Positions 8,830 to 58,758 of a stretch of DNA of 64,000 bases are shown here, one piece after another. Numbering within the stretch: position 1 is the first letter of the stretch; each line of letters begins with the position of its first letter. Position numbers and translations under genes: made by a program. The notes under the pieces are model-generated. The model made no database searches and was not told the DNA's origin. It was given only the letters and a program-made list of their open reading frames with translations. The DNA lies in assembly GCF_004010195.1 (NCBI RefSeq), contig NC_057721.1, forward strand, positions 51,845,414 through 51,909,413, given 5' to 3'. Origin of the DNA: Chiloscyllium plagiosum. Taxonomy: Eukaryota.

Positions 8830-8962
8830 ATTCCTGATGAAGGGCTTATTCCTGAAATGTTGACTCTCCTGCTCCTTGGATGCTGCCTGACCTGCTGTGC
8901 TTTTCCAGTGCCATACTGTTCGAGTCGGAACTCCAGCATTTGCAGTCCTCACTGTCTCTCTA
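8830..8962 (+). mobile_element. Short PLE (Neptune-type) terminal fragment beginning at a hammerhead-like motif
   Basis: ttcCTGATGAagggcttattcctGAAAtgttga...gatgctgcctgacctgctgtgcttttccag...gcagtcctcact, same family as 49075-49291. Confidence 0.75.
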
Positions 8963-10224: not shown

Positions 10225-10505
10225 TATTGAAAACTGGCTCAAAGCATAAGTACTAAACTTATCTGCCATGTGGTTATAATGTAATACCAAAAACAGAAAT
10301 TGTTGGTGAAACTCAGCAACATCTGATTGACAAACCAGAGATAAAGTTTCAAGTCTGGTCACTCTTCATCAGAACTCTCTTATAATTTAAGTTTTGTTGT
10401 CAGTTGTTTTATGTAAACTATGAATATTTATAAACTGGTTTGGTTTTTTAATGGCTAAGCCAAAAATCCTGAAATAATTTGTGTTTTTTATTTGGCTGAA
10501 TAAAG

Positions 10506-20118: not shown

Positions 20119-20705
20119 CATTCTTGAGTTGATTCCATCACCCTCCTGACCTGTGCCTTATAGATGGCAAATTGGAAGTCAAGAGGTGAGATACTTACTT
20201 TCTACAAAATGAACTAACCACTCACGTTAGAGTTTTTTTTTTCAACTCATAAGCTAACTCCTTTTCTCCCTCGATATTGCCACACCTGCTGAGTTTTTCC
20301 AGTGCTTTCTGTTTTAAATCACACCAGAAATTTATTTTTAGTTGACGGCTGGAATTGATTTCACTTAATTACTATTTAGCTTTCTGAAAAAAATACATTT
20401 CTAAGATTTTGCATATAGTCAAGCATTCTCTATTGAACATACTTTAAAATCAAAACACTACAAGATATTGCGCAATGTTTCATTCTGTTTTCAGCTTGTA
20501 GTAATATTCTGAAACTCATGACTAATTTGAATACATTTATTGGTTTGGAATTTCTGATGGGTTACATTGTTTTTTTTTCCCCAGTGCAATTGAACAAACA
20601 TGCAAAATTTCAAATGCATTTGCTGAGGCATGAAGTTTAAGAGCAGAGATGCTGGGACTATATAAAATGTTGATTAGGCTACAGCTAGAGTATTGTGTGT
20701 AGTTC

Positions 20706-21272
20706 AAAGTTTGTGAGAAGATTTGTAGCTCGGGTGCTCGTTGCTGTGGTTTTGTTCGCCGAGCTGGAAGTTTTTGTTGCAAACGTTTCGTCCCCTGTCG
20801 AGGTGACATCCTCAGTGCTTGGGAGCCTCCTGTGAAGCGCTTCTGTGGTGTTTCCTCTGGCATTTATAGTGGCCTGTCCATGCCGCTTCCGTTGTCAGTT
20901 TCAGCTGTCCGCTGTAGTGGGCGGTATATTGGGTCCAGGTCTATGTGTTTGTTGATGGAGTTTGTGGATGAGTGCCATGCTTCTAGGAATTCCCTGGCTG
21001 TTCTTTGTTTCGCTTGCCCTATAATGGTAGTGTTGTCCCAGTCAAATTCATGTTGCTTGTCGTCTGCGTGTGTGGCTACTAGGGATAGCTGGTCGTGTCG
21101 TTTCGTGGCTAGCTGATGTCAACCGGAAGCGGCAGGGACAGGCCACTATAAATGCCGGAGGAAACACCATAGAAGCGCTTCACAGGAGGCTCCCAAGCAC
21201 TGAGGATGTCACCTAGACAGGGGACGAAACGTTTGCAACAAAAATTTCCAGCTCGGCGAACAGAACCACAGC
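20706..21272. mobile_element. Fold-back Penelope/Poseidon-type PLE fragment with a 17-bp TSD, inserted in a CR1 remnant
   Basis: Reverse arm 20706-~21115 (GIY-YIG C-terminus plus pseudo-LTR) and forward arm 21117-21272. AGTATTGTGTGTAGTTC is duplicated at 20689-20705 and 21273-21289. Confidence 0.9.
21197..21236 (+). ncRNA. Minimal type I hammerhead ribozyme motif in a PLE pseudo-LTR (mirror copy at 20779-20818 on -)
   Basis: GCA CTGAGGA T GTCACCT-AGAC-AGGGGAC GAAA C GTT TGC: stem I GCA/TGC, catalytic core, stem II, palindromic ACGT in place of stem III. Confidence 0.7.
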
Positions 21273-21344
21273 AGTATTGTGTGTAGTTCTGAGATCTGCA
21301 TTGTAGTGATTGCATTGAAAATGGTGCAGAGAAGATTTACCAGG

Positions 21345-29739: not shown

Positions 29740-30725
29740 CACATTAGTGAGATAGTTGATTCATTGGATTTAATTTTCCAAAGCTCATTTGATTTGGAGA
29801 AGGTTCCTTTAGAGCGGAAAATACCTAATGCAACACCTTTATTCAAAAAGGAGGGAGCCAGAAAGCAGGAAACTACAGACTAATTAGTTTAATATCTGAC
29901 ACAGGGCAAACATTGAACACTATTACTAAACACTATTACTTGGATAAGTTCATGCTAATTTGGCAGAGGCAACATGATTTAATCAAAGGGAAATTGTTTA
30001 ACCAATTTATTGATTGTGAAGATGACATAGAAACCTATAAAGGGATGTAGATAAATTAAGTAAGTGGGCAAAGATCTCGCAAATCTAATGGAAAAGTGTG
30101 AAGATGTCAGAGCTGATGAAGAGCCACCTGGGCTCAAAACATTAGATTGCTCTCTCTCCATGGATGCTGCCTGACCTGCTGTGATCTTCATCATATTTTG
30201 TTTCCAGTAACAGATTGTTATGTTTTAGTGTGAAGAAAATTGAATGCAAGAGCAGGGAGGTTATGCTTCAGTTACATTAGATATTGGTGAGACCATATCT
30301 GGAGTACTGTATACAGTACTGAACATTGTATTAACTGTTCGTGTGTTAGAAGTAGATAAGAAAAGGTTTACTAGACCAATATTGGAATGAGCAAATTGAA
30401 AAGAAGTTGCACAGGATAATCCTGTACCCTCTGGAGTTTAGAAGAATCAGAGGCGGCCTAATTGAAACATATAAAATGCTGAGGAGCTTGACCAGGTAGA
30501 TGTTGAAAGGATGCTTCCTCTTGTGGGAGAATCTAGGAGCAGGAGTCATAGTTTTAAAAAAGAGGCACCGATTTAAGACAGAGATGAAGAAAACAAATTA
30601 TTCTCAGAAGATTGAGTCTGAAAAAGTCCCTTCCTCAAAAGGCATGGATGCAAAATCTATAAATATTTTTAAGACTCAGGTAGACAGATTCTTGATTACC
30701 AAATAGATGTAAGATTATTGGGTGT
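29740..30725 (+). mobile_element. Heavily deleted CR1 with a short hammerhead-bearing PLE fragment inserted at about 30105-30208
   Basis: TPLFKKEG and FRRIRGGLIETYK remnants. The insert reads gCTGATGAagagccacctgggctcAAAAcattag...gatgctgcctgacctgctg. Confidence 0.7.
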
Positions 30726-35065: not shown

Positions 35066-36090
35066 CTAAGAGACGGAGTACAAGAAAGAAATGGACAACT
35101 TAATGGTATGGTGTAGAGGCAAGAATCTCTCCTCAAAGTCAGCAAAATGAAGGAGCTAGACATTGACTTCAAGAAAGAGACAAGATTAGAGTGGTGCTGG
35201 AAATGCTCAGCAGATCAGGCAGCATCCGAGGAGCAGGAAAACGACGTTTCGGGCAGGAGCCCTTCATTAGGAAACTCCTGCCTGAAACGTCGATTTTCCT
35301 GTTCCTCGGATACTGCCTGACCTGCTGAGCATTTCCAGCACCACTCTAATCTTGACTCTAATCTCTAGCATCTACAGTCCTCACTTTCGCCTATCGACTT
35401 CAGAAAGTGAAGTGTAAGACACACCTGTGACTGTATCAGTGATGCTGAGATGGAGGTAGTCGAGAGCTTCAAGTTCCTACAAGTAAATATTATCAATGGT
35501 TTATTCTAATCAATCCATGTCAATGCTACAGTCAAGGCAGCACATCAACGGCTTTACTTCCTTAGAAGCTGAAGGAAATTTGGCATGTCCACAATGATTT
35601 TTATCAATTTTTATAAATGCACCATAGAAAGCATCTATCCAGATGCATCACAGCTTGATATGGCAATTGCTCTGCCCAGGACTGAAAAACTAATCCAGAG
35701 AGTTGTGAACACAGCCAAATCCATCATGAAAACCAGCCTTCCTTCTATTGACTCCACCTACGTTTCCCGCTGCCTCGGAAAGCAACTAGCATAATAAAAA
35801 AAAACCCTCCCACCCTCATTATATCGGGCAGAAGATACAAACATTTGAAAACAGCACCCATAGATTTAAGAACAGCGCCTTATCTGTTGTTATCACACTT
35901 ATGAATGGACCCCGTATATATTAGAGTTGACCTTTCTCTGCACCGTCTTTGCAGCTCTAACACTATATCTGCATTCTGTTCTGTTACCCTGATGTATTTA
36001 TGTAAAGTATGATTGGTCTGATTAGCACACAAAACAGTACTTTTCACTGTACTTTTGTTCTTACGATAATAATAATTCAAATCAACAACC
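35066..36090 (+). mobile_element. Rex1/Babar-like LINE 3' part carrying a nested fold-back PLE fragment
   Basis: KxKELxIDF and FYKCTIES remnants; aataataattcaaatcaa tail. Confidence 0.65.
35178..35392. mobile_element. Fold-back Neptune-type PLE terminal fragment
   Basis: Inverted arms caagattagagtggtgctgg...gtttcgggcaggag / ctcctgcctgaaac...ccagcaccactctaatcttg. Flanks attgacttcaagaaag / atcgacttcagaaag form a decayed TSD. Confidence 0.8.
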
Positions 36091-40140: not shown

Positions 40141-40445
40141 CACCCTCATGTTTCAGTATCTCTATAACATCTTGCAGCCTTGTAAAATTCCTTCCATCTT
40201 CCTCATTCCTCTGATACTGGCCTTTTGTTCATCTCCATCCCCCATTCCATTAGAAACAAATTTCTGGAATGTCTTAAATCCTTCTCTTTATTGATTGTCC
40301 ACTTATTCTTTCAGGCCTTTCTTAAAATCCTCAATTTAGACCAAACGTCTTGTCACTTCTTCTTTAGTTTGGCACTTGTTACCATTTGAAGTGGGTGTTT
40401 TGCATTTTTTTTGTTAAATGTTTGTTCTTATTGAATCATGAAGAA

Positions 40446-41887
40446 ATGTTGTGGTTCTGTTCGCCGAGCTGGAAGTTTTTGATGCAAACGTTTCGTCCCC
40501 TGGCTAGGCGACATCATCAGTGCTTGGGAGCCTCCTGCGAAGCGCTTCTTTGATGTTTGCTCCGGTGTTTATAGTGGTCTGTCCCTGCCGCTTCCGGTTG
40601 TCAGTTTCAGCTGTCCGCTGTAGTGGTTGGTATATTGGGTCCAGGTCGATGTGTTTGTTGATGGAGTTTGTGGATGAATGCCATGCCTCTAGGAATTCCC
40701 TGGCTGTTCTCTGTCTGGCTTGCCCTATGATAGTACTGTTGTGGCCCTTTTGAATAGTGTCCTGATGCAGCTTCGTTTGTGTGTGTTGGGGTGGTTACTC
40801 TATTCAAAAAGGCCACAACACACTGCAGTACACCAGAACTGCAAAAAGAAGAAGAGGAACACCTATACAAGGTATTCGCCAAAAACGGATACCCGCGCAA
40901 CTTCATCAACAGATGACTAAGAGAAAGACCACGGAACGAGGACATACCACAACCAAAAGGACTAGCCACACTACCATACAACAGGAGCATCTCGGAACTG
41001 ACAGCCAGACTACTGCGACCCCTAGGACTCATAACAGCACACAAACCAACAGCCACGCTCAGACAACAACTCACCAGAACGAAAGACCCGATACCCAACA
41101 TGAGCAANNNNNNNNNNNNNNNNNNNNNNNNNNNNGCTATTGTTTCTCTGGCTAAGGTTTTGTCAATCGAGGTGAACAGTGCCGTCACGTCGAATGATAT
41201 CATGGTTTCTTCTTTGTCTATGTGTATATTTCTGATGATGTCCAAGAATTCCTGTGTTGATTGTATAGAGTGTTTGGATCCGCTGACTAGGTGTTTCAGT
41301 TTCTGTTGTAGTTCTTTGGCCAGTTTGTATGATGGTGTCCCTGGCAGTGATACTATGGGTCTGAGTGGGATGTCTGGTACGAATGTAGTGTACAAAATAC
41401 CATGCAAGGATTGCACAAAACACTATATAGGACAAACAGGAAGACAGCTAACAATCCGCATACATGAACATCAACTAGCCACGAAACGACACGACCAGCT
41501 ATCCTTAGTAGCCACACACGCAGACAACAAGCAACATGAATTCGACTGGGACAACACTACTATCATAGGGCAAGCCAGACAGAGAACAGCCAGGGAATTC
41601 CTAGAGGCATGGCATTCATCCACAAACTCCATCAACAAACACATCGACCTGGACCCAATATACCAACCACTACAGCGGACAGCTGAAACTGACAACCGGA
41701 AGCGGCAGGGGCAGACCACTATAAACACCGGAGGAAACATCAAAAAAGCGCTTCGCAGGAGGCTCGCAGAAGCACTGATGATGTCGCCTAGCCAGGGGAC
41801 GAAACGTTTGCAACAAAAACTTCCAGCTCGGCGAACAGAACCACAACAACGAGCACCCGAGCTACAAATCTTCTCACAAACTTTGAA
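40446..41887 (+). mobile_element. Rearranged Penelope/Poseidon-type PLE with inverted pseudo-LTRs and a 15-bp TSD
   Basis: RT (PLRPIVS, SFDVTALFTSI) on -; GIY-YIG (NVVYKIPCKDCTKHYIGQTGRQLTIRIHEH) on +. TTGAATCATGAAGAA at 40431-40445 and 41883-41897. Confidence 0.9.
41772..41811 (+). ncRNA. Minimal hammerhead ribozyme motif (mirror copy at 40484-40523 on -)
   Basis: GCA CTGATGA T GTCGCCT-AGCC-AGGGGAC GAAA C GTT TGC. Confidence 0.72.
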
Positions 41888-43046
41888 TCATGAAGAATGC
41901 ACTGTAAAGTCCACTGGAAGTTATTTGTAAGGGATGAAAGTTTGTTCATTGTTGCAATAATGGATGTGCAACCCAGCCTTCTGAAAATTGATCTTAATTT
42001 TGTTCTCACTCGCTTTAAGAAATATGCATGTAAAAGAAAGGGATCTTGTTACCAACTATCATGTTTAAATCATTTTTTCTGTAGAATTTCCCTACAAATT
42101 AAATTGAAGATATCTCTCCATTCTTTCATCTGTCTGAACATATGGTTTCATTTTCATTGTATCTAGTTTAATTTTTTTTTGGTTTCGCTTCCTGTCCAAT
42201 TATTATATTTTACATTATAATAGCATCTGGCAGTAGATGTTGTTTGGCCTGTTTGTCTGGTATTGTGATCCAATATTACATGAGCTAAAATTGTAAGAAA
42301 ATCATGTTTAAAGAATCTGCCAAGGCACTAGCTGTAAATTTAATATGTAACGCTATACAAAGCACTACATTCTCTCCAATGGAAGTCAGATTGGAGGTCT
42401 CCTTTTATTTTCGACCCAACATCTGTCAATGCTGCTTCATTTTTCTCTTTCCTCTATATATACTTTGGGGACTTAATATTCAGTTTGGAGGTTGCTCAGG
42501 AGAGAATTAAGTAGTTTTGCTTCCCAGTTCATTTATCTCTTACTACGAATGTGATTCCTCATTAAAAATAGATTTAGACAGGAAGTGAACAATCAGAGAC
42601 AAGTCCAAGATGGAGATTCAGATACTGTGAGTTGGTGACTGGTCTCGAAGGCCTTGCACCTTTTATGAATTGCCAGGAGGATTGGGAGACCTACAGTTCC
42701 TTGACCCTTTCTCAATGTAATGCTTTGCCCAATCAGAAATTATTTGACAACTAATCAGCACCCTTCTCAGTTGTAATATAAACTGTTATGATTGTTTAAA
42801 GTTTGGCATCCTTACATTTGTCCTAATTAGCACAAGGTGAAAACAAGAGATGGCGACATTTAACACATGCTTCTCTACTGAGCAAAATTCAGATATATTT
42901 GTCATATAATTCAAACCTAATTTAGAATTATATAAATATCATAAGATGGAGGTAAGTAATGATGAAGACTTGGAAACCAAATATTAGCAAAAATAATTCT
43001 AACAATTATATTCATTTCATACAAACAAGCAAAAAAATCCATTCAG

Positions 43047-49057: not shown

Positions 49058-49074
49058 TGGTAAGAAATATAGGA

Positions 49075-49292
49075 GGAGAAAGTGAGGTCTGCTGATGCTG
49101 GAGATCAGAGCTGAAAATGTGTTGCTGGAAAAGCGCAGCAGGTCAGGCAGCATCCAGGGAACAGGAGAATCGACGTTTCGGGCATAAGCCCTTCTTCATT
49201 CCTGAAGAAGGGCTTATGCCCGAAACGTCGATTCTCCTGTTCCCTGGATGCTGCCTGACCTGCTGCGCTTTTCCAGCAACACATTTTCAGCT
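49075..49292. mobile_element. Young fold-back Neptune-type PLE fragment: perfect 90-bp inverted repeat, 14-bp TSD
   Basis: Arms 49109-49198 and 49203-49292 are exact reverse complements with loop TTCC. TAAGAAATATAGGA at 49061-49074 and 49292-49305. CTGAAGAagggcttatgcccGAAAcgtc at 49202-49229. Confidence 0.92.
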
Positions 49293-51501
49293 AAGAAATA
49301 TAGGAACATAGGGGCAAGAATGGGCCATTCAACTCTATTAAGACTGCTATACCATTTAACAGGTCATGACTGCTCATTCACTTTGATGCCATTTACTTAC
49401 ACTATCTCTATATCCTTTTATGTCAATAGCATTTAGAAACCTTCAATCTCTGCTTTAAACATACTCAATGATTGAACTTCCACAGCTCTCTTGGGTAGAG
49501 ACTTCAAATAATTCACAACCTTCCGTGTAAAGAAAATTCTTCTCATTTCGATCCCAAGTGGCTTCCTTGCTATTTTGAAATTGTGTACTTTGGGTCTCAA
49601 CAGCTTAACTAGCGGAAACAAGTCACCTGCATCTTTTCTTCTGTCTCTTTAAGTATTTAATAGGTTTCAGTGAGATTGCCTCTCATTCTTCAAAACTCCA
49701 ATCTCCCCAATTCTCTTCATTGGACAGTCCCACTATCCTGGGAACAAATCTGGTGAAACTCCCTCTACACACTCCCTCTATATGGCAATATCTTTCCTAT
49801 CATAAGGAGACTGAAGCTGCAACATGTAACTCTGGTGAATTCTAACAAGGTTCTATACAATTCAAGCAAGACTTTGTTACTTCTGTACTCAATCTTTTAG
49901 CAGTAAAGGCTAATTTACCATTTGCCTTTTACCAATTTATAAATTGCTTGATGCATGTCCATATAAGTTTTCAGTGACTTATTGACAAAGACACCTAGGT
50001 TCCTTTTGTATATCTACACTTTTGAAATGCTTACCATTTAAGAAATACCCTGCTCCTCTTACAGAAATGAAAAAAAAAACGGAAAGGAAAAAACATACAA
50101 CATGACTGAATAAGCAAGAGGATAAGGAACATAGATCCCTTAAATAACAAAGCTGGGGAAATAATAATGGTGAAACAGGAGATGGCAGAGGAGTTGAAGA
50201 CACGACCAGCATTCCAAAATTGCTACATAATTGAGTGGCAAGAGAGGGAAAGGAAATAAATTCAAAAACTGTCATAAGAGAAAAAATACTATGGAAGCTA
50301 AAGACTAGTAAACTCCTAATGGTTTGCATATTAGGATATTAGAGGAAGTAACTACAAAGATGGTAGATGCACTGATAGTAATTGTTCAAGAAACCTTAGA
50401 TTCTAGAAAACTCATGGAAGATTAGAAAACTGCTAATGTAACAGACTTATTCAAAAAGGAAAGGAAACAAAAGCAGGAAGCTACAGGCCAGCTAGTTGAA
50501 CATATGCTATTGGGAATATATTAGAATTGATCACAAAGATTTTAATAACAAAAGCATTTAGAAAATCATAACAGAAATCAAGCAGAGTCAGTAGGGCTTC
50601 TTGAAGGAGAAATCAAGCCTATTATTATGCCTATTAGAATTCTTTGAGGAGGTAAAAATCAGAATAGATGATGGGGAGCCTGTAGATTTAATATTTTTTA
50701 GATTCCCAAAAGACATTCGATAAGGTACCACACATTAGGCTACTTAATAAGAAAAGTGCCCATGGGTGTTGAAGGTAGTACATTAGCATGGAGAGAGGAT
50801 TGGCAAACTAGTAGAAGACAAAGAGTTGGGTTAAGGGGTGGCATTTTCAGCATGGCAACCCTGAAACTAATGACAAACCACAAGGATCATTGCTGGACCC
50901 ATAATTATTTACAATATATATTAATGACTTGAAAGAGGAAAGTGAATATACTATTGTCAAGTTTGTCGAAGATACAAAGAATAGGTAGGAAGGCAAGCAG
51001 TGAGGATGAATCTACAGAGGGTAAGTGGGCAAAACCTTGGCACATGGAATATAATGTGGGAAAATGTGAGATCATGCAATTTGGCAAGAGAAGTTGAGGA
51101 GCTGAATATTGTGCAAATAGAAAAAACTACAGAAAACTGTAGTTCAGAGGGATTTAAGTATCTTTGTACATAAATGAGTAAATTTAAGTTCAGCAGATAA
51201 TAACAAAGACAAGTAGATTGCTAGGTACAGAAGGTCGTTTGTATGAGGAGAGATTGATTAGTTTGAGCTTGTAAACATTGAAGTTTAGAAAAATGAGAGA
51301 CAACCTGATTGAAACATAATGACTAGATACTGAGAGGCTGTTTCCCACTGTGACAGTGACTAAGACCAGATAGGAAAATCTCAAAGCAAAAGGTGGCCCA
51401 GTTAGGACAAAGATGAGGAAGACTTTCATCTCTCAGAAGGTAGTGAATATGCAGAATTCTTTACTGAAGAAGGCTGTAGATGTTGGGTCATTAAGCAATG
51501 A

Positions 51502-51662
51502 GGAGAAAGTGAGGACTGCAGATGCTGGAGACCAGAGTTGAAAAATGTGGTGCTGGAAAAGCACAGCAGGCCAGGCAGCATCCGAGGAGCAGGAGAATTG
51601 ATTCTCCTGCTCCTTGGATGCTGCCTGGCCTGGTGTGTTTGTCCAGCACCATGTTTTTCAAC
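51502..51662. mobile_element. Fold-back Neptune-type fragment with a 14-bp TSD, hammerhead core absent
   Basis: TCATTAAGCAATGA at 51488-51501 and 51663-51676. The arms meet at ggagaattgattctcc. Confidence 0.85.
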
Positions 51663-53271
51663 TCATTAAGCAATGATCACTTTACACTGTGCAGTCATTT
51701 GGCCATGCAGCTGCTTCAAGGTTCTGTACACTCTAATCAGTTTGCTGTGTCAACGCAGTGTTTTCTGGTTTCAGAAATCAATGTTATGCATAGATCTTGG
51801 AGACCTGCCTGTCAAAAGAGAAATGATAGGGAGTTTTGTTGTTAAATATATTCAAGGATGGGATAGACAGATTTTTAGTTAGCAAAGGAATCAAGGCTTA
51901 TGGGGAACAGGCAGGAAAATGTAGATGTGGATTATAAGGTCAGCCACGTTATCACTGAATGGCAGAGAAAATACTATGGGCTGAATAACCCCTCTATACT
52001 TTTATGTCTTGTAGTCCTTTATTCAGATAGGGAAGGGTCAGAATGAAACTACAGACCAGTTAGCTTAACAGCTTTCATTAAAAAAAATTAGATGCTATCA
52101 CTAAAAAAGTTATAACAGGGCACTTAGATATAATCATTCAGCATGGCTTTGTGGAAGGCAAATCACATTTGATTAGTCATTTGGTTTTCTTTACATGAAG
52201 AATTTACATGTATTATGGTTGAAGTGGAACCAGTGTATCTATGTTACTTAGATTTCCCGAAGGCATTTGATAAAAGTGTCACATTAAAGTTTGTTATGAA
52301 ATATAAATGGTCATCGTGTAGGCAGTAATACATTAGCATGAATAGAAAATTAGCGGTTAACAAGAAGCAGAGATTATGTATAAATGTAATGAGTGGTGTG
52401 CCAGAGGGATCAGTACTTCAACTACTTGTAAGTTATATAAATAACTTGAATGAAGGGAGGATAATTAAGTTTATTAATGACAGGAAGCTGGATGGAATGT
52501 AAATTGTAAGAAAATATAAGCAGGTCACAAAAAGGTGTAGATTAATTGAATGAGTGACAATCCACCAATTGGATTGTAATGTATGGAAATGTAAAATTCT
52601 CAATTTCGGCAGGAAGAATAAAAAAAAATATATTACTTCAATGATGAGAAATTACAAAGCTCTGAGATGCAGAGATCTGGGTGTCTTAGCACATGCATCA
52701 CAAAAGATTGGTATGCAGGTACAGTAAGTAATCAGGGAAGATAACAAATGATCTAAGTTATTATGATTGATATTGATATGAAACTAGGGATATTATGCTT
52801 CAGTTGTGCAGGGTACTGATGAGGCAACATCTAGAGTACTCTGCACAATACTGGTCCCCTTATTTAAGTAAGAATCTAAATACATTGGAGCAGTAGAGGG
52901 AAGGTGTACCAGATTAATAACTTGAATGGTGGCTGATCTTTGAGGAAAGATTAGGCAGGCTATGCTTGTACCTTCAGGAGTTTCAAAGAGTCACAGGCAG
53001 CCTGATTAAAATAAACGGTCGTAAACTCTTGACAGGGCAGCTGTGGATAGAATGCTTTCTTTAATGTGAGAATCTAGAATTAGGAGACACTATTTGAAAC
53101 TAAGGGGCTGCCCATTTAAAACACAGATTAGATTAACATTAGACGAACATTTTTCTCTTGGAAGGTCGTAAGTCTTTGCAACTCACTATCTATAAAGATG
53201 CAGAAGCAGAAACTTTGAAAAATTTGAATGTGGAGGGAGCTAGATTCTTGGTAAGCAAAGAGTTAAAAGGT

Positions 53272-53460
53272 ACAGCAGTTCAGGCAGCATCTGAGGAGCA
53301 GTAAAATAGACACTTCGGGCAAAAGCCCTTCATTCCTGATGAAGGGTTTTTGCCTGAAATGTCGATTTTACTGCTCCTCGGATGCTGCTTGAACTGCTGT
53401 GCTTTTCCAGCACCACTAATCCAGAATCTGGTTTCCAGCATCTGCAGTCATTGTTTTTAC
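53272..53460. mobile_element. Fold-back Neptune-type fragment
   Basis: acagcagttcaggcagc...cccttca-ttcc-tgatgaaggg...gctgcttgaactgctgt. Decayed TSD caaagagttaaaaggt / caagggttgaaaggt. Confidence 0.8.
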
Positions 53461-56400
53461 CAAGGGTTGAAAGGTTATCAGGGATAGGAATGTGGATTTG
53501 AGGTTACAGCCAGATCAGCTACGATTCTATTAAATGGCAGAGCAGGCTCGAGGGGCCAAATGGTTTACTCCACGTTTCTGTGTATTTACACATATGTTTG
53601 GACAAATAAAACCCACACCTTTCATAGCCATCAAATCTTGGAGTAGAACTCACAGTCTAAACTTCTGTCTCAGAAGCAAGGAAATGCCATTGCACAGCAA
53701 ACACTCTGGATAGTGCTGTACTTTCGCAGTGCAATAAAGTTTATAACCTTAAAAGGATTGTGAAAGCTCAGGCTTAGTAAATATGCTGACTGTTTGTTAA
53801 AAATGAAATTTGATTTCCTAACTTTTTTTCTTAGCTTGTAGAGCAATAGATTAATTCTCCTCTCAGGACTCAATAGCTTGTCTACCTCTTTGGTGGAACA
53901 ATGTTGATTAACTCCAGAAAAAAATTAAAAGAATGAATACAGCCATAGCTCAAATAAACAACATTAATGCCAGTTTTTATGTAAAAAAAGGTCTTGCAAT
54001 GATGGAATTTGAGGTGCCCCTTTCTCTTTCTACTAAAAAATTGGGAGATGACTTTGTTTGGATGATTAGTTTTGAATGAGCTAAAACTTTATTCTTTCTG
54101 TTCAGGTGTGACAAAACAATTTGATTTATTTGAGCTTCACCATTAATTCCAATTCATTTACTGCCAGCCTCAATGTCAAGAAATTGCACTCTCTTCCATA
54201 AAACAAATGTGAGAAATGGTGCCTACAAGACTAACCCCTTAACACTCACGTTTCTTATCAAGTTTTTATTTTATAATTTCTCAGGATCCTTATCAGTCTC
54301 TTAGGCAGTGAATCCTAAAGTAAGACCCATAAATCAGCATAGCCATGGCCATAAATGGAACTTATGCATTCACATTAAAGTATATTAATGGCATATATCT
54401 TTTGAGATATTTCCAATTTGATCAGTACTGAACTGAACTATGACACCTATCAAATGAGGATATCTTTGAGATATGGATCTCAGGTGGATATTTTTGTTGT
54501 GCAATGACAGAGAGTTAATTAATAATCTTGCTCTAAAGGATACTTTAGAAAAGAGTAAACTTCATATGATGGAATTTTAGATTAAGAGTGAGAGTGAAGT
54601 AGTTCAATCAGAAATAGGTTTGTCAATCTATTCAAAGGGAAAAATGAAGGTATAATGGGAGTCCAAAACTAGACGGCAGAGTTTTAAGGTGAGAGGGGTC
54701 AGATTTTAAAGCGATCTAAGGCACAACTTTTTCATGCAGAGGGTGGTGCATCTATAGAATAAGCTGCCAGAAGAAGTGATGGAGGCTGGTACAATTACAA
54801 CATTTAAAAGGCATCTGGATGGGTAAATGAATAGGAAGGGGTTTAGAGGGATATTGGCCCAAATGCTGGCAATTGGGACAAGATTAGTTTAGGATAACTG
54901 GTTCCCATGGACGAGTTGGACAGAATGGTCTGTTTCTATGCTATATAGTTCTATGACTATAAGGGAAGAGAATAGTAGGGAATAAGGAAATCAAAACTAA
55001 ACAAATTCTTTTAATATTTTTAAGGTAGTAATCAGTAAATTCTTGGTAAGCAAGGGGTGAAAGGTTATCAGGGGTAGGAATGTGGATTTGAGCTTACAAT
55101 GAGATCAGCTATGATCTTATTAAATAGCAGAGCAGGCTTGAGAAACCAAATGGGTTACTCCATGTTCGTGTGTATTTACATATATATTTGGGCAAATTAA
55201 ATCCACAATCTTACATTTTTTTAACTAGGTATTAGTTTCTTTGAGTTTCATGGATTGTTTCTCTTCACAAGGCCTAGCAAGTTTAATAGGTGCATCGTAT
55301 CAAATGCACCTTGCTAACTGTATGATCCACTCCTATGTTGCTCTACTTGTCTGAATCTAGCACCATTCTATTACTCGCAATACTTAGAACAACTCATTGC
55401 TACAAGGATATCCTGCAATGGACTGACATCCTGGAGCCAGCACCATCTTTAAAAGAACATTGAGTCCCAGCCAAGTACCATAGGTCAAGAGTTGTCTTGC
55501 ATGGGTTCCTGATATTTGCCTCAATATGGTAGATAAGGGAAACTGGTGTCAAGAGTGTGGTGCTGGAAAAGTACAGCAAGCCAGGCAGCTGGAAAGGGAC
55601 AAGGGAAACTGGTGCCCCACTTTACAGGCTATGCAAGTTATCCTGCTTTATTAGGAAAAAAAGACAGAATATTTCTTAAATAACAAGAGACTAGAAGAGT
55701 GAGCTTTAAAGACACTTGGATATCCTTGCTCATGAGTCTCCGAAAGTCACCATGCAAATACAGGAACAATTAACAAGACAAGTAATATGTTACCTTTCAT
55801 TACATGAGGCTTTGAGTAGAGAAGTAAAATTGTTTTGCTACAAATATAAAAGGGCTTGGTGAAACCATGGTATATTGTGTCATTTTGTGAATATTGGTTT
55901 TATTAGCTACTTGCCAGAGAGTGAAACAGAAGTTAAACCATTTAAATCTTGGATTAGAAGGATTGTCCTGCGAGGAAAGATTAAATGAACTGGGCCTACA
56001 TTCTCTGCAGGTTTGAAGCACGAGAAATTCTCATTCAAATGTAGAAAATTCTTACAGGGATTGACAGAGTAGGTCATGGAAAGCTATTTCCCCTGGCTGT
56101 GGAGTCTGGAACCAGGGGACATAAGCTCAGAATATGGGCTGGCCATTTAGGACTGAGAGGTGGAGGATTATTTTCATTCAGAGGATGGTGAATCTTTGGA
56201 ATTTTCTCCCTCACTGGCTGTGGAGGCTCAATCATTGAATATATAGAATTGTGGATATTAAACATTATGAGGTACAGGGATGGCAACTGAAAGTTGTATT
56301 AAAATAGAAGATAAGCCAAAACCTCAGTGGATGGTGGAGTCAGTTTATGAAGCAGAATATCCAATTCCTATTTCTTATGTCTTTTACAAATGAAGTTGAG

Positions 56401-56619
56401 GTAAAGATCAGTGCTGGTCTAATTGAATAGTGTTGACTGACGTTCTCCCATTTCCATCTTTTTAAGTAAGTATTATTTAACAGTTTAATTTTGACAATAT
56501 ACTTTAAATTTACTTCTTTAAATTCTTGTTAAGTGTTAAACATTTTCACATTGTGTTAGTTCCAAATTGCAACTCAATTCATAGAAGACATTTTCAATGG
56601 AAAATTACATATTTCTTAC

Positions 56620-56946
56620 CAGCCACTTGTAGCAAGACATCAGTTTCTTGTTTCCCTCCAGGCGTACTGACATAGCATTGGTACTCTCCTTCGTCATTCT
56701 TATTAAGTTTTGAAAGCTGAAGGGATGCATTTCCTCTCATTATCTCATTCTTAAAAAGCTTTGTTCTTCCTCTGTAGTTTTCATCTTGGTTCGATAGCTG
56801 ATCGCTTTCTCGATAAAAGCTGTGAATTACAATGGTGCCAGAGTGCAAAATGCGCATCCAGTGAAGAACTACTCCAGCTATAGGTGATGGTTGAAATTTA
56901 CATGGCAAAATGACTTCCTTGGAAATTATACCCATGATGCTCCCAT
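56620..56946 (-). CDS. HHLA2: HHLA2-like IgV domain 1 exon
   Basis: tcttttccttttag| ... G|gtaaga. DGSIMGIISKEVILPCKF...LHW...IHSFYRESDQLSNQDENYRGRTKLF...GNASLQL...DEGEYQCYVST, a classic B7/butyrophilin-type V domain. 327 bp, phase 1-1. Confidence 0.92.
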
Positions 56947-57891
56947 CTAAAAGGAAAAGAATATGCTTGAAATTTATGATCCAAATTTCAAAAACAGATC
57001 ATGTCAATTAACCATGAAGTGAATGTTCACCAGCAATAATTATGCACAGTGAGCATCACAATTTAGAGGGTGGCTATTGGAAAAGATTAAGATAACAAAG
57101 GTTCTGTGCCTAAACCTAGAATTGTGGCAAGTAAAATTGATTTATATTATTCCAGGAAGGCATAGATAACCTCTGGTTTCTTAACTTTACTGCAAAATTA
57201 TTTTCCTAAACTTCTTTCCTCTATTTCTCCGCATCTATATCGAAAAAAAAATGTGCAAAGCTCTTGGATTTCTTTGTTATTAAAATTGAGATCATTCAAT
57301 TAATTGCCTAAAATAACACGGCCCCCTGAAACCATTTACATCTCCCCCTTGCTAAACCCTATTTAAGATGTATTGTCTTGCCTGGTATAGTGTGAAATGA
57401 TTAGAAATCGACATATGAATGCCCTTTTGGAATAGACAGCCTGTCAGTTCCATTTAATGAAAACTAATCTTGACAAAGGTGTAGCCTCTTTTCTTTTGAA
57501 ATAAGGGTGTGACAAAATGCTAATATCTACCCTTCTAATTCCATTTTCCATAACCTTAATATTCTTTATTTTTTTAAACACGATCTAGTTCTCTATTAAA
57601 TATTTTATCAGAGTTGTTATTCTAACACCCCTCCAGATGTGCTAGTAAATAAAGAACAATGGATCCATGATTTTGAAACATACACTTCCCACCCTCAGTG
57701 AATATTCAGTAAGTAGTTGTGATCAAGCAGTGCTGATAATTCTAATTTTAATACATTGTGTAAAAAGATTCTGCTATTTTCCACTTTATTACAGTAATTT
57801 GTCCTTTATTTTAATGTGTTTATAGTTAATTGAACCCTCAGTAATTTTATAGCATAAGGCAATATGTAAATATCAGAAAAAAGGTTGTCAC

Positions 57892-58009
57892 CTGTAGTCA
57901 CAGTCTGCAGTTGCAAAATTCCAAAAACATAAAAACAGACTATTCCACATAACATTGTCGTGCTTCTTTGAGTTTTCAATTGGCTGTGTTTAAGTATATT
58001 TCCAAACAT
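57892..58009 (-). CDS. HHLA2: HHLA2-like signal-peptide exon (ATG at 58009, or in-frame ATG at 57955)
   Basis: MLCGIVCFYVFGILQLQTVTT followed by a phase-1 donor G|gtgaca. An upstream acceptor ttttttaacag| gives exon start 58080. The phase joins correctly to the IgV exon. Confidence 0.75.
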
Positions 58010-58541
58010 AATGTTGCAAGTAGAATCTTATTTCATTCTCAGTGAACAGGTCAGGTCATTCCTTAAGAATCATCATTCAACTGTTAAAAAAGGCCAAATT
58101 ATGAAAAAGATCACTGAAAAAATACTTCCATAGCACATAAGTTGCACAATATTCAAGAACATAGTGACTGTTGATTAGTTTATCACCAGCACTTGACCCC
58201 CACAGGAGACGTCTTCTTCAGTGTCTAGAATGAGTGGATTCTCTTTTTTTAAAGCAATGAATTCAGATATGTTATAACACACTCAAGAGCAGCTGGGGCA
58301 TCAGCCCAGATCTATTCACTGGGGTCAATTCACTTTAGAGAATTAATTTTATCCGTCATTACCTGGTTTGGCTTACATGTGACTCCAGACCAAAACAGCA
58401 ATGTGATCGACTCTTAATTGTCCTCCGGGCAAATAGGAAAGGGTAATAATTGCCGGCCTCACCAATGATGCCCATATCCCATAAATAAATCAACAAGGTC
58501 AGGACGGCAGGTTTAATATATGTGTGACTTAGATCAAGATA

Positions 58542-58758
58542 TGACTTGGAGATGCTGGTGTTGGACTGGGGTGTACAAAGTTAAAAATCACACAACAGCA
58601 GGTTATAGTTCAACAGGTTTAATTGGAAGCACATTAGCTTTTGGAGAGCCGCTCCTTCATCAGGTGGTTGTCACCTGATGAAGGAGTGATGCTCCGAAAG
58701 CTAGTCCTTCCAAATAAACCTGTTGGACTATAACCTGGTGTTGTGTGATTTTTAACTT
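58542..58758. mobile_element. Fold-back PLE-type fragment of a third family, with a hammerhead motif at the apex
   Basis: Arms aagttaaaaatcacacaac...ccttcatcaggtg / cacctgatgaagg...gttgtgtgatttttaactt. CAC CTGATGA A GGAGT-GAT-GCTCC GAAA G CTA GTC at 58672-58706. TSD acttagatcaa(g/a)ata. Confidence 0.8.

What the first reader, a model, noticed from the sequence alone, without database searches (positions are those of the whole stretch)
49075..58758. Truncation and fold-back points cluster just 5' of the hammerhead core
Seen: in three independent insertions the inversion apex sits directly 5' of the core: 49199-49202 (cttca-ttcc-tgaag), about 53333 (cttca-ttcc-tgatg) and 58667-58671 (caggtg-gttgt-cacctg). 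In the insertion at about 35273 the long arm also ends there. Non-inverted fragments at 8830, about 30110 and about 10375 likewise begin within a few bases of CTGATGA. Inference: either reverse transcription stalls and snaps back right after copying the ribozyme, or a short non-autonomous RNA starting at the ribozyme (retrozyme- or SINE-like) is the mobilised unit. Arm lengths differ between copies, which favours the hairpin being made anew at each insertion over a fixed MITE being amplified.
Basis: partly seen in the sequence, partly recalled or inferred. Interest (0 to 1): 0.7.

Follow-up and report, generated by a model that had tools for sequence, protein, structure and literature searches.

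The report
Penelope copies end at RNA cap
The short hairpin-shaped repeats are end pieces of Penelope-type jumping genes, and about two thirds of the copies that reach their small hammerhead ribozyme stop a few bases in front of it, likely because the capped RNA begins there and is likely copied twice, once onto each strand of the cut target DNA, which offers a testable clue to how these poorly understood elements move.

Summary
The repeats are pseudo-LTR ends of endonuclease-bearing Penelope-like elements (PLEs), with tens of thousands of copies in the genome. Of 95 arms picked by their 3' end, 46 break at +1..-8 relative to the core's first base, a per-base rate 16-25 times that on either side. 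Genome-wide, only 9,630 of 31,178 exact cores keep the 7 upstream bases. Ends at an Inr-like A carry an extra G (65 of 100; 77 of 100 in a second family; control 8 of 100), the mark of a copied cap. The predicted ribozyme cut site shows no excess. All 77 TSD-bounded hairpins have one tailed and one tail-less arm, and the arms share subfamily variants. In 38 the tail-less arm is the longer one, which snap-back cannot make. Best reading: priming at two sites near the RNA's 5' end, run-off at the cap, and joining of two cDNAs. The inverted copy, tail, pLTR promoter and dual start sites are published. I did not find the cap-end pile-up in print. No RNA start was shown. The scan found this before on other DNA of this genome.

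The parts
49061..49074 (.). Left copy of the 14-nt target-site duplication (right copy 49292-49305)
49075..49198 (-). Family A (Neptune-type PLE end), tailed arm: 36-nt tail plus body reaching +2
49197..49292 (+). Family A tail-less arm from -5/-4 (Inr-like A at 49198) to +91; hammerhead-like core starts at 49202; 0 mismatches to the other arm over 90 nt
51501..51664 (.). Family A hairpin folding at +29/+30 (counter-example); tail on the left arm; 13-nt TSD at 51489 and 51664
53273..53460 (.). Older family A hairpin; left arm reaches about +6, right (tailed) arm starts at about -5; core at 53336
58540..58758 (.). Family B hairpin; tailed left arm reaches -8 and is followed by a C shared with the right arm (fits a cap copy), right arm starts at -3; core at 58675; TSD at 58529 and 58757
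35176..35395 (.). Older family A hairpin; tail-less left arm reaches -3, tailed right arm starts at +16; TSD-like repeats at 35165 and 35396
8830..8960 (+). Solo family A copy starting at -4, with tail; core at 8834
30113..30189 (+). Old hammerhead-like fragment of another family; start near the core not provable
10290..10375 (-). Old hammerhead-like fragment of another family; start near the core not provable
20701..21273 (.). Family C PLE inverted insert, one tailed and one tail-less arm, 15-nt TSD; apex far upstream of the core (control without pile-up)
40447..41887 (.). Family C inverted insert with GIY-YIG-like ORF end and an assembly gap; TSD at 40433 and 41885

Best explanation
The hairpins and stubs are insertion products of endonuclease-bearing Penelope-like elements whose 5' ends pile up 1-8 bases before the hammerhead core, likely because the element's capped RNA starts there, and each hairpin likely comes from two cDNAs primed on opposite strands of the cut target. 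Steps: (1) inferred: Pol II starts at an Inr-like A in the pseudo-LTR (-4 in family A, -8 in family B). (2) Shown: that end runs on through the core and a 36-nt tail into the ORF (ATG about 163 nt from the core), so the two 3' end points (+91 and +127) lie about 95 and 131 nt from the RNA start. (3) Inferred, from the Anolis PLE in vitro work: the protein nicks both strands and starts reverse transcription at these two internal sites, one on each nick. (4) Inferred: cDNAs primed at the 5'-proximal copy run off the RNA end and copy the cap as an extra base. (5) Shown in the junctions: the ends are trimmed and joined by 1-3 nt microhomology, to each other (hairpin) or to the target (solo stub), inside a 13-16 nt duplication. 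Copies primed at the downstream pseudo-LTR would pass this point. The ribozyme is a landmark next to the start site, not the cause.
For: Pile-up; family B 16 of 40 arms at +1..-12, 0.055 per nt against 0.006 and 0.004. Extra G: base before A(-4) is G in 65 of the first 100 of 2,986 matches (hand count; background 26%, p 3e-16), against 8 of 100 for ends at -3. Family B: G before A(-8) in 77 of 100 (hand count). By eye about 8 of 21 family A G's in fetched loci fit neither the target nor the other arm, and the rest sit in microhomology. An extra G at full-length 5' junctions is read as a cap copy for L1 (PMC11702581, passage). Predicted cut site +29: 356 ends against 404 at control +31. Tail rule: 77 of 77 TSD-bounded hairpins and 120 of 134 pairs have one tailed arm; tail-less arm longer in 38, tailed arm longer in 14, level in 18, ambiguous in 7. 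Arms share variants: 4 of 64 discordant at +43 against 32 expected. Where one arm passes the pile-up and its partner reaches the core, the partner also passes in 7 of 7 (one of them runs into an assembly gap at -7; p 0.0003), as a hard RNA end predicts and a chance stall does not. The ORF follows the tail; GIY-YIG match. Two start sites, both strands nicked, predicted dimer and a binding motif in the first 172 nt of the ORF: PMC11167929. Promoter in the pseudo-LTR: PMC2377424.
Against: No RNA start was seen. The one raw-read RNA run that laid (single-cell polyA) shows loose ends at -4 but no place where many molecules begin, and those loose ends can be read-through of genomic copies. The commonest mapped end is -3 (17 of 95), not -4 (8), so trimming has to be assumed. 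The extra G could be cap-independent terminal addition, and in family B part of it fits the other arm (5 of 16 G loci). Family C shows no pile-up. In ORF-start chimeras of a sister subfamily the downstream copy mostly starts 13-45 nt upstream of the core. 14 of 134 pairs break the tail rule, all among those without a clear TSD. One RNA copied twice cannot be told from two RNAs of one source locus. Part of the hairpin set came from loci picked by 5' patterns; in the 35 not so picked the split is 18 tail-less longer and 7 tailed longer.
Confidence: 0.7

Rival explanations
1. A short non-autonomous RNA starting at -4 (from solo stubs or prematurely ended transcripts) is mobilised in trans, SINE- or retrozyme-like; the rest of the mechanism is the same.
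For: It predicts the same capped end and extra G. Stubs far outnumber ORF-linked ends (31,178 cores against 1,130 ORF-start matches). One 224-nt tandem array with a core in each unit was seen.
Against: Short (53) and long (23) arms carry the same variant combinations at similar frequency, with no clear private lineage. No tandem array or tRNA gene in the window. In the Anolis element the protein needs sequence downstream of the start sites, which stubs lack (inference across clades).
Confidence: 0.15
2. Reverse transcriptase stalls after copying the ribozyme and the cDNA folds back on itself.
For: Some junctions use a 3-nt self-complementary match (TTC with GAA) that one strand could form. Many breaks lie at +2..+13 near stem II (17 of 95).
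Against: Tail on the shorter arm in 38 of 77 hairpins cannot be copied from a tail-less first strand. The extra G is specific to one position. The region folds no better than shuffles (z 0.23). The end differs by family and is absent in family C. Passing is coupled between arms.
Confidence: 0.06
3. The RNA end at -4/-8 is made by processing (a nuclease, or protein-assisted cleavage other than the hammerhead cut), and the enzyme adds a C at any template end.
For: It explains a hard end, the coupling of arms and the extra base without a cap. No start site was observed.
Against: The end falls on the A of an Inr-like sequence in family A and on a C-A step in family B. The hammerhead's own predicted cut site shows no excess.
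Confidence: 0.06
4. Hairpins arise by self-priming on an antisense template, as proposed for rotifer Penelope elements (PMC3846280, passage).
For: Published reading of head-to-head palindromes at PLE inversion junctions.
Against: It does not explain a sense-strand extra G before an Inr-like A, solo stubs with the same end, or the 77 of 77 one-tail rule.
Confidence: 0.03

Closest known systems
Insertion unit of EN+ Penelope-like elements (Penelope/Poseidon, Neptune): 5' truncation, adjacent inverted copy, 30-40 bp tail on one end (Craig et al. 2021, PMC8557442; Arkhipova et al. 2013, PMC3846280; passages read)
   Same: Inverted copy, one-sided 36-nt tail, TSD, hammerhead motif in the pseudo-LTR, C-terminal GIY-YIG, CxC..CxxC linker.
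   Different: Those passages treat truncation as variable and the tail as optional. Here most copies are 100-250 nt, end at one place with an extra G, and every TSD-bounded hairpin has exactly one tail.
Anolis Poseidon in vitro (Frangieh et al. 2024, PMC11167929; abstract, main text and start of the methods read)
   Same: Two internal reverse-transcription start sites bounding the tail, both strands nicked and extended, predicted dimer, ribozyme cleavage not needed.
   Different: Different clade. In the parts read it does not treat inverted insertions or the RNA's 5' end. In family A the ATG lies downstream of the tail, not at stem II.
L1 twin priming and the cap-derived extra G (PMC11702581; passages read)
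   Same: Second cDNA primed on the other target strand, TSD kept, microhomology at the junction, extra G at complete 5' ends.
   Different: L1 twin priming copies two adjacent, almost non-overlapping parts of the RNA. Here both cDNAs would copy the same stretch, giving a near-perfect palindrome.
Minimal hammerheads of metazoan PLEs (Cervera and de la Pena 2014, PMC4209133; parts 1-2 of 4 read) and non-LTR retrozymes (bioRxiv 10.64898/2026.07.22.740005; part 1 and passages read)
   Same: Thousands of dispersed minimal motifs tied to truncated PLEs, including pairs on opposite strands 100-700 bp apart.
   Different: Retrozymes are tandem arrays with a ribozyme in each unit. These inserts are single or head-to-head and do not start at the cut site.
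MITEs
   Same: Short, non-coding, palindromic, very numerous, flanked by a duplication.
   Different: Lengths and apices vary, ends are asymmetric, and arms match each other better than other copies.

Membership tests
EN+ Penelope-like element (Neptune type) | C-terminal GIY-YIG endonuclease upstream of the pseudo-LTR | tested here: met
   PF01541, E 1.7e-5, above cut-off, in family A locus L293; family C only E 0.018, below cut-off
EN+ Penelope-like element (Neptune type) | Telomerase-like reverse transcriptase in the same ORF | tested here: inconclusive
   A YIDD-bearing fragment lies about 1 kb upstream of a core across an assembly gap in L296; the short pieces gave no Pfam match; no intact ORF was held
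EN+ Penelope-like element (Neptune type) | CX2-5CxxC linker before the endonuclease (Neptune) | tested here: met
   CNCRRCKTC in L293 and a decayed version in family B locus L191; definition
EN+ Penelope-like element (Neptune type) | Minimal hammerhead motif in the pseudo-LTR | tested here: met
   Core boxes and stem II present; family A's young subfamily reads CUGAAGA; no Rfam hammerhead match
EN+ Penelope-like element (Neptune type) | Inverted 5'-truncated copy and 30-40 bp one-sided tail | tested here: met
EN+ Penelope-like element (Neptune type) | Phylogenetic placement of the RT | not tested
   no full RT was held in this gapped assembly sample
Active hammerhead ribozyme | Self-cleavage after +28 | not testable with these tools
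   no excess of copies starting at +29; helix I is only about 2 bp by reading
MITE | Copies share fixed ends, length and symmetric terminal repeats | tested here: not met
   51 lengths among 77 hairpins; asymmetric ends; same junction with either tail polarity, 4 and 5 cases
Non-LTR retrozyme | Tandem units, each with a hammerhead | tested here: not met
   none in the window; one 2.5-copy array elsewhere
Non-LTR retrozyme | Circular RNA intermediates | not testable with these tools
   no suitable RNA data
SINE | tRNA-derived Pol III head | tested here: not met
   no tRNA gene in the window (ARAGORN would miss decayed heads); the 5' end is PLE pseudo-LTR sequence
SINE | Own lineage with private variants | tested here: inconclusive
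   same variant combinations in 53 short and 23 long arms; small sample

The most novel reading that the evidence does not exclude
Shark-type Neptune PLEs transpose by a dimer that copies one RNA twice from two fixed start sites onto the two nicked target strands, and mostly do so at the RNA's capped 5' end. The genome therefore holds tens of thousands of strong-stop-like cDNAs that map the transcription start to the base and explain both the inverted pseudo-LTR and the one-sided tail of PLEs in general.
Probability: 0.5. Interest if true: 0.65.

Novelty: new variant of a known kind. Interest (0 to 1): 0.48.

Why it matters
How PLEs form inverted pseudo-LTRs and a one-sided tail is stated as open in Craig et al. 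2021 (section 15), and the role of their hammerhead is unclear. These copies give in vivo rules to test: one tail per hairpin, both arms from one source, ends at a capped start, and no use of the ribozyme cut site. They favour double priming over self-priming models and give a base-exact prediction for CAGE and for the existing in vitro PLE assay. They also warn that such hairpins can be mislabelled as MITEs or microRNA precursors (only sub-threshold miRNA matches in Rfam).

Tried and rejected
DNA similarity search of the own genome returned nothing because common words are skipped; pattern counts were used instead. Core-anchored sampling was rejected as biased and replaced by 3'-anchored sampling. 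Rfam gave no hammerhead match, only sub-threshold hairpin families. Ribozyme-cut templates were rejected; the small bump at +24..+33 (6 of 95) overlaps short palindromic words. MITE amplification was rejected. RNA: no RNA holder listed; X20 laid no reads, and X19, X1 and X4 could not show a start. The scripted sorting of junction G's picked wrong arm ends in several rows, so the by-eye reading is given as approximate. Literature searches found no paper describing a cap-end pile-up or twin priming for PLEs. The library lacks most subscription papers, Repbase entries were not available, and supplements (for example Fig. S2 of PMC11167929) were not read and may bear on this.
Full report
Setting. 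The window lies in a 3.56 Gb gapped assembly (G000); that it is a cartilaginous fish is my recalled impression, not a tool result. Positions below are counted from the C of the hammerhead core (+1).

What is in the window. Inverted repeats are confirmed at 49109-49292, 53266-53406, 58578-58758, 35176-35359, 51535-51664 and 20742-21273. They belong to three families with hammerhead-like cores: A (49202, 53336, 8834), B (58675) and C (21200, 41775, 40520). The 30113 and 10372 fragments are older families whose starts cannot be fixed.

Identity. Long family A copies continue upstream into a GIY-YIG domain (PF01541, E 1.7e-5) preceded by a CxC..CxxC linker and, in another locus, a YIDD-bearing fragment. 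This fits Neptune-type PLEs as defined in Craig et al. 2021 (passages and section 15). Downstream, the 36-nt tail continues into an ORF whose ATG lies about 163 nt from the core. Family B has a similar decayed ORF. Family C has a weaker GIY-YIG match.

Is the cluster real? Picking copies by the core forces breaks to lie at or before it, so I anchored on the 3' end (57,710 exact matches) and fetched 95 of the first 100. Of these 95 arms, 46 break at +1..-8: 0.12 per nt against 0.005 over +63..+2 and 0.007 over -9..-158 (9 arms censored by gaps, five rows of the whole set fixed by hand). Adding 17 arms from 800 kb of contiguous stretches and the window gives the same rate. Genome-wide, 9,630 of 31,178 exact cores keep -7..-1, while 27,158 keep 9 further bases downstream. 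Family B: 16 of 40 arms break at +1..-12, five of them at -8. Family C: all 7 core-anchored copies extend more than 100 nt upstream.

What the ends are. The family A end sits on the A of TCATTCC, which fits the Inr consensus (recalled). Among copies ending at A(-4), the next base is G in 65 of the first 100 listed (2,986 in all; background 26%). For ends at -3 it is G in 8 of 100. In family B the base before A(-8) is G in 77 of 100. In fetched loci the G is partly in microhomology with the target or the other arm and partly unexplained by either (about 8 of 21 by eye). For L1, an extra G at full-length junctions is read as a copied cap (PMC11702581, passage). The predicted hammerhead cut site is not used: 356 ends at +29 against 404 at +31. 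The region folds no better than shuffles. D. virilis Penelope has its promoter in the pseudo-LTR (PMC2377424, passages). RNA reads showed loose ends at -4 but no molecule starts, so the start site is inferred, not shown.

How the hairpins form. Of 134 head-to-head pairs, 77 have a TSD of 9 nt or more and no gap (58 of them 13-16 nt), and all 77 have one tailed and one tail-less arm; of all 134, 120 do. The tail-less arm reaches further 5' in 38, the tailed arm in 14, 18 are level and 7 ambiguous; in the 35 not picked by a 5' pattern the split is 18 to 7. A cDNA folding back on itself cannot put a tail on the shorter arm, so two primings are needed. Arms of one insert share subfamily variants (4 of 64 discordant at +43 against 32 expected; mean divergence 3.7% within and 6.7% between inserts). 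Where one arm passes the pile-up and the partner reaches the core, the partner passes too in 7 of 7; three other partners broke far downstream and one candidate was a separate insertion. Lengths vary (51 among 77) and one recurrent junction occurs with either polarity, so this is not a MITE. Short and long arms share variant combinations, so a separate lineage is not apparent.

Mechanism. Frangieh et al. 2024 (PMC11167929) showed for an Anolis PLE two internal start sites bounding the tail, nicking and extension of both strands, a predicted dimer, a binding motif in the first 172 nt of the ORF, and no need for ribozyme cleavage. Applied here (inference), the complete binding site would lie at the RNA's 5' end, so both cDNAs would run off at the cap after about 95 and 131 nt and join each other or the target by short microhomology. 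Against this: no start site was observed, -3 is the commonest mapped end, family C shows no pile-up, and a sister subfamily's chimeras mostly join further upstream.

Novelty. The inverted copy, tail and TSD are published, as are opposite-strand pairs of minimal hammerheads. I found no paper on the cap-end pile-up, the extra G or the strict one-tail rule in nine searches of a library that lacks most subscription journals; supplements were not read. Earlier reports of this scan on other pieces of the same genome reached the same reading; I had noted mine before looking. Verdict: a real feature of a known class of element, with a new and testable mechanistic signature; interest 0.48.

Noticed in passing
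L369:1378-1942; also G000:C1:16163040-16163294 and C2:96929372-96929815: Head-to-tail arrays of 205-224 nt units carrying the ORF start; in L369 the 224-nt unit (2.5 copies, 99% alike) spans core, tail and ORF start. Such arrays would meet the working definition of a non-LTR retrozyme and show how one can arise from a PLE end.
   Followed up: partly
L367, L372, L373, L380, L381 (around position 1500-1650): In 5 of 30 ORF-start loci a piece ending 30-110 nt into the ORF is joined directly to a copy starting at -3..-5, one with an extra G; this fits a template jump from the RNA's 5' end.
   Followed up: partly
L357, L364, L371, L374-L376, L378: A sister subfamily with a different stem II loop and 3' end; in its chimeras the downstream copy mostly starts 13-45 nt or more upstream of the core.
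   Followed up: no
window 41382-41890: In family C the reading frame runs through the hammerhead region, with ATG codons at the core and a TATA-like word about 57 nt upstream, as described for Anolis Poseidon; this family shows no pile-up.
   Followed up: partly
window 49202 and 31,178 genome copies: The young family A core reads CUGAAGA with a helix I of only about 2 bp, so the ribozyme may be weak or inactive while the family spread widely.
   Followed up: no
L215 and L216 (G000:C1:3.888 and 3.892 Mb); L099: Stubs duplicated together with their flanks by later local duplication; these are not independent insertions.
   Followed up: no
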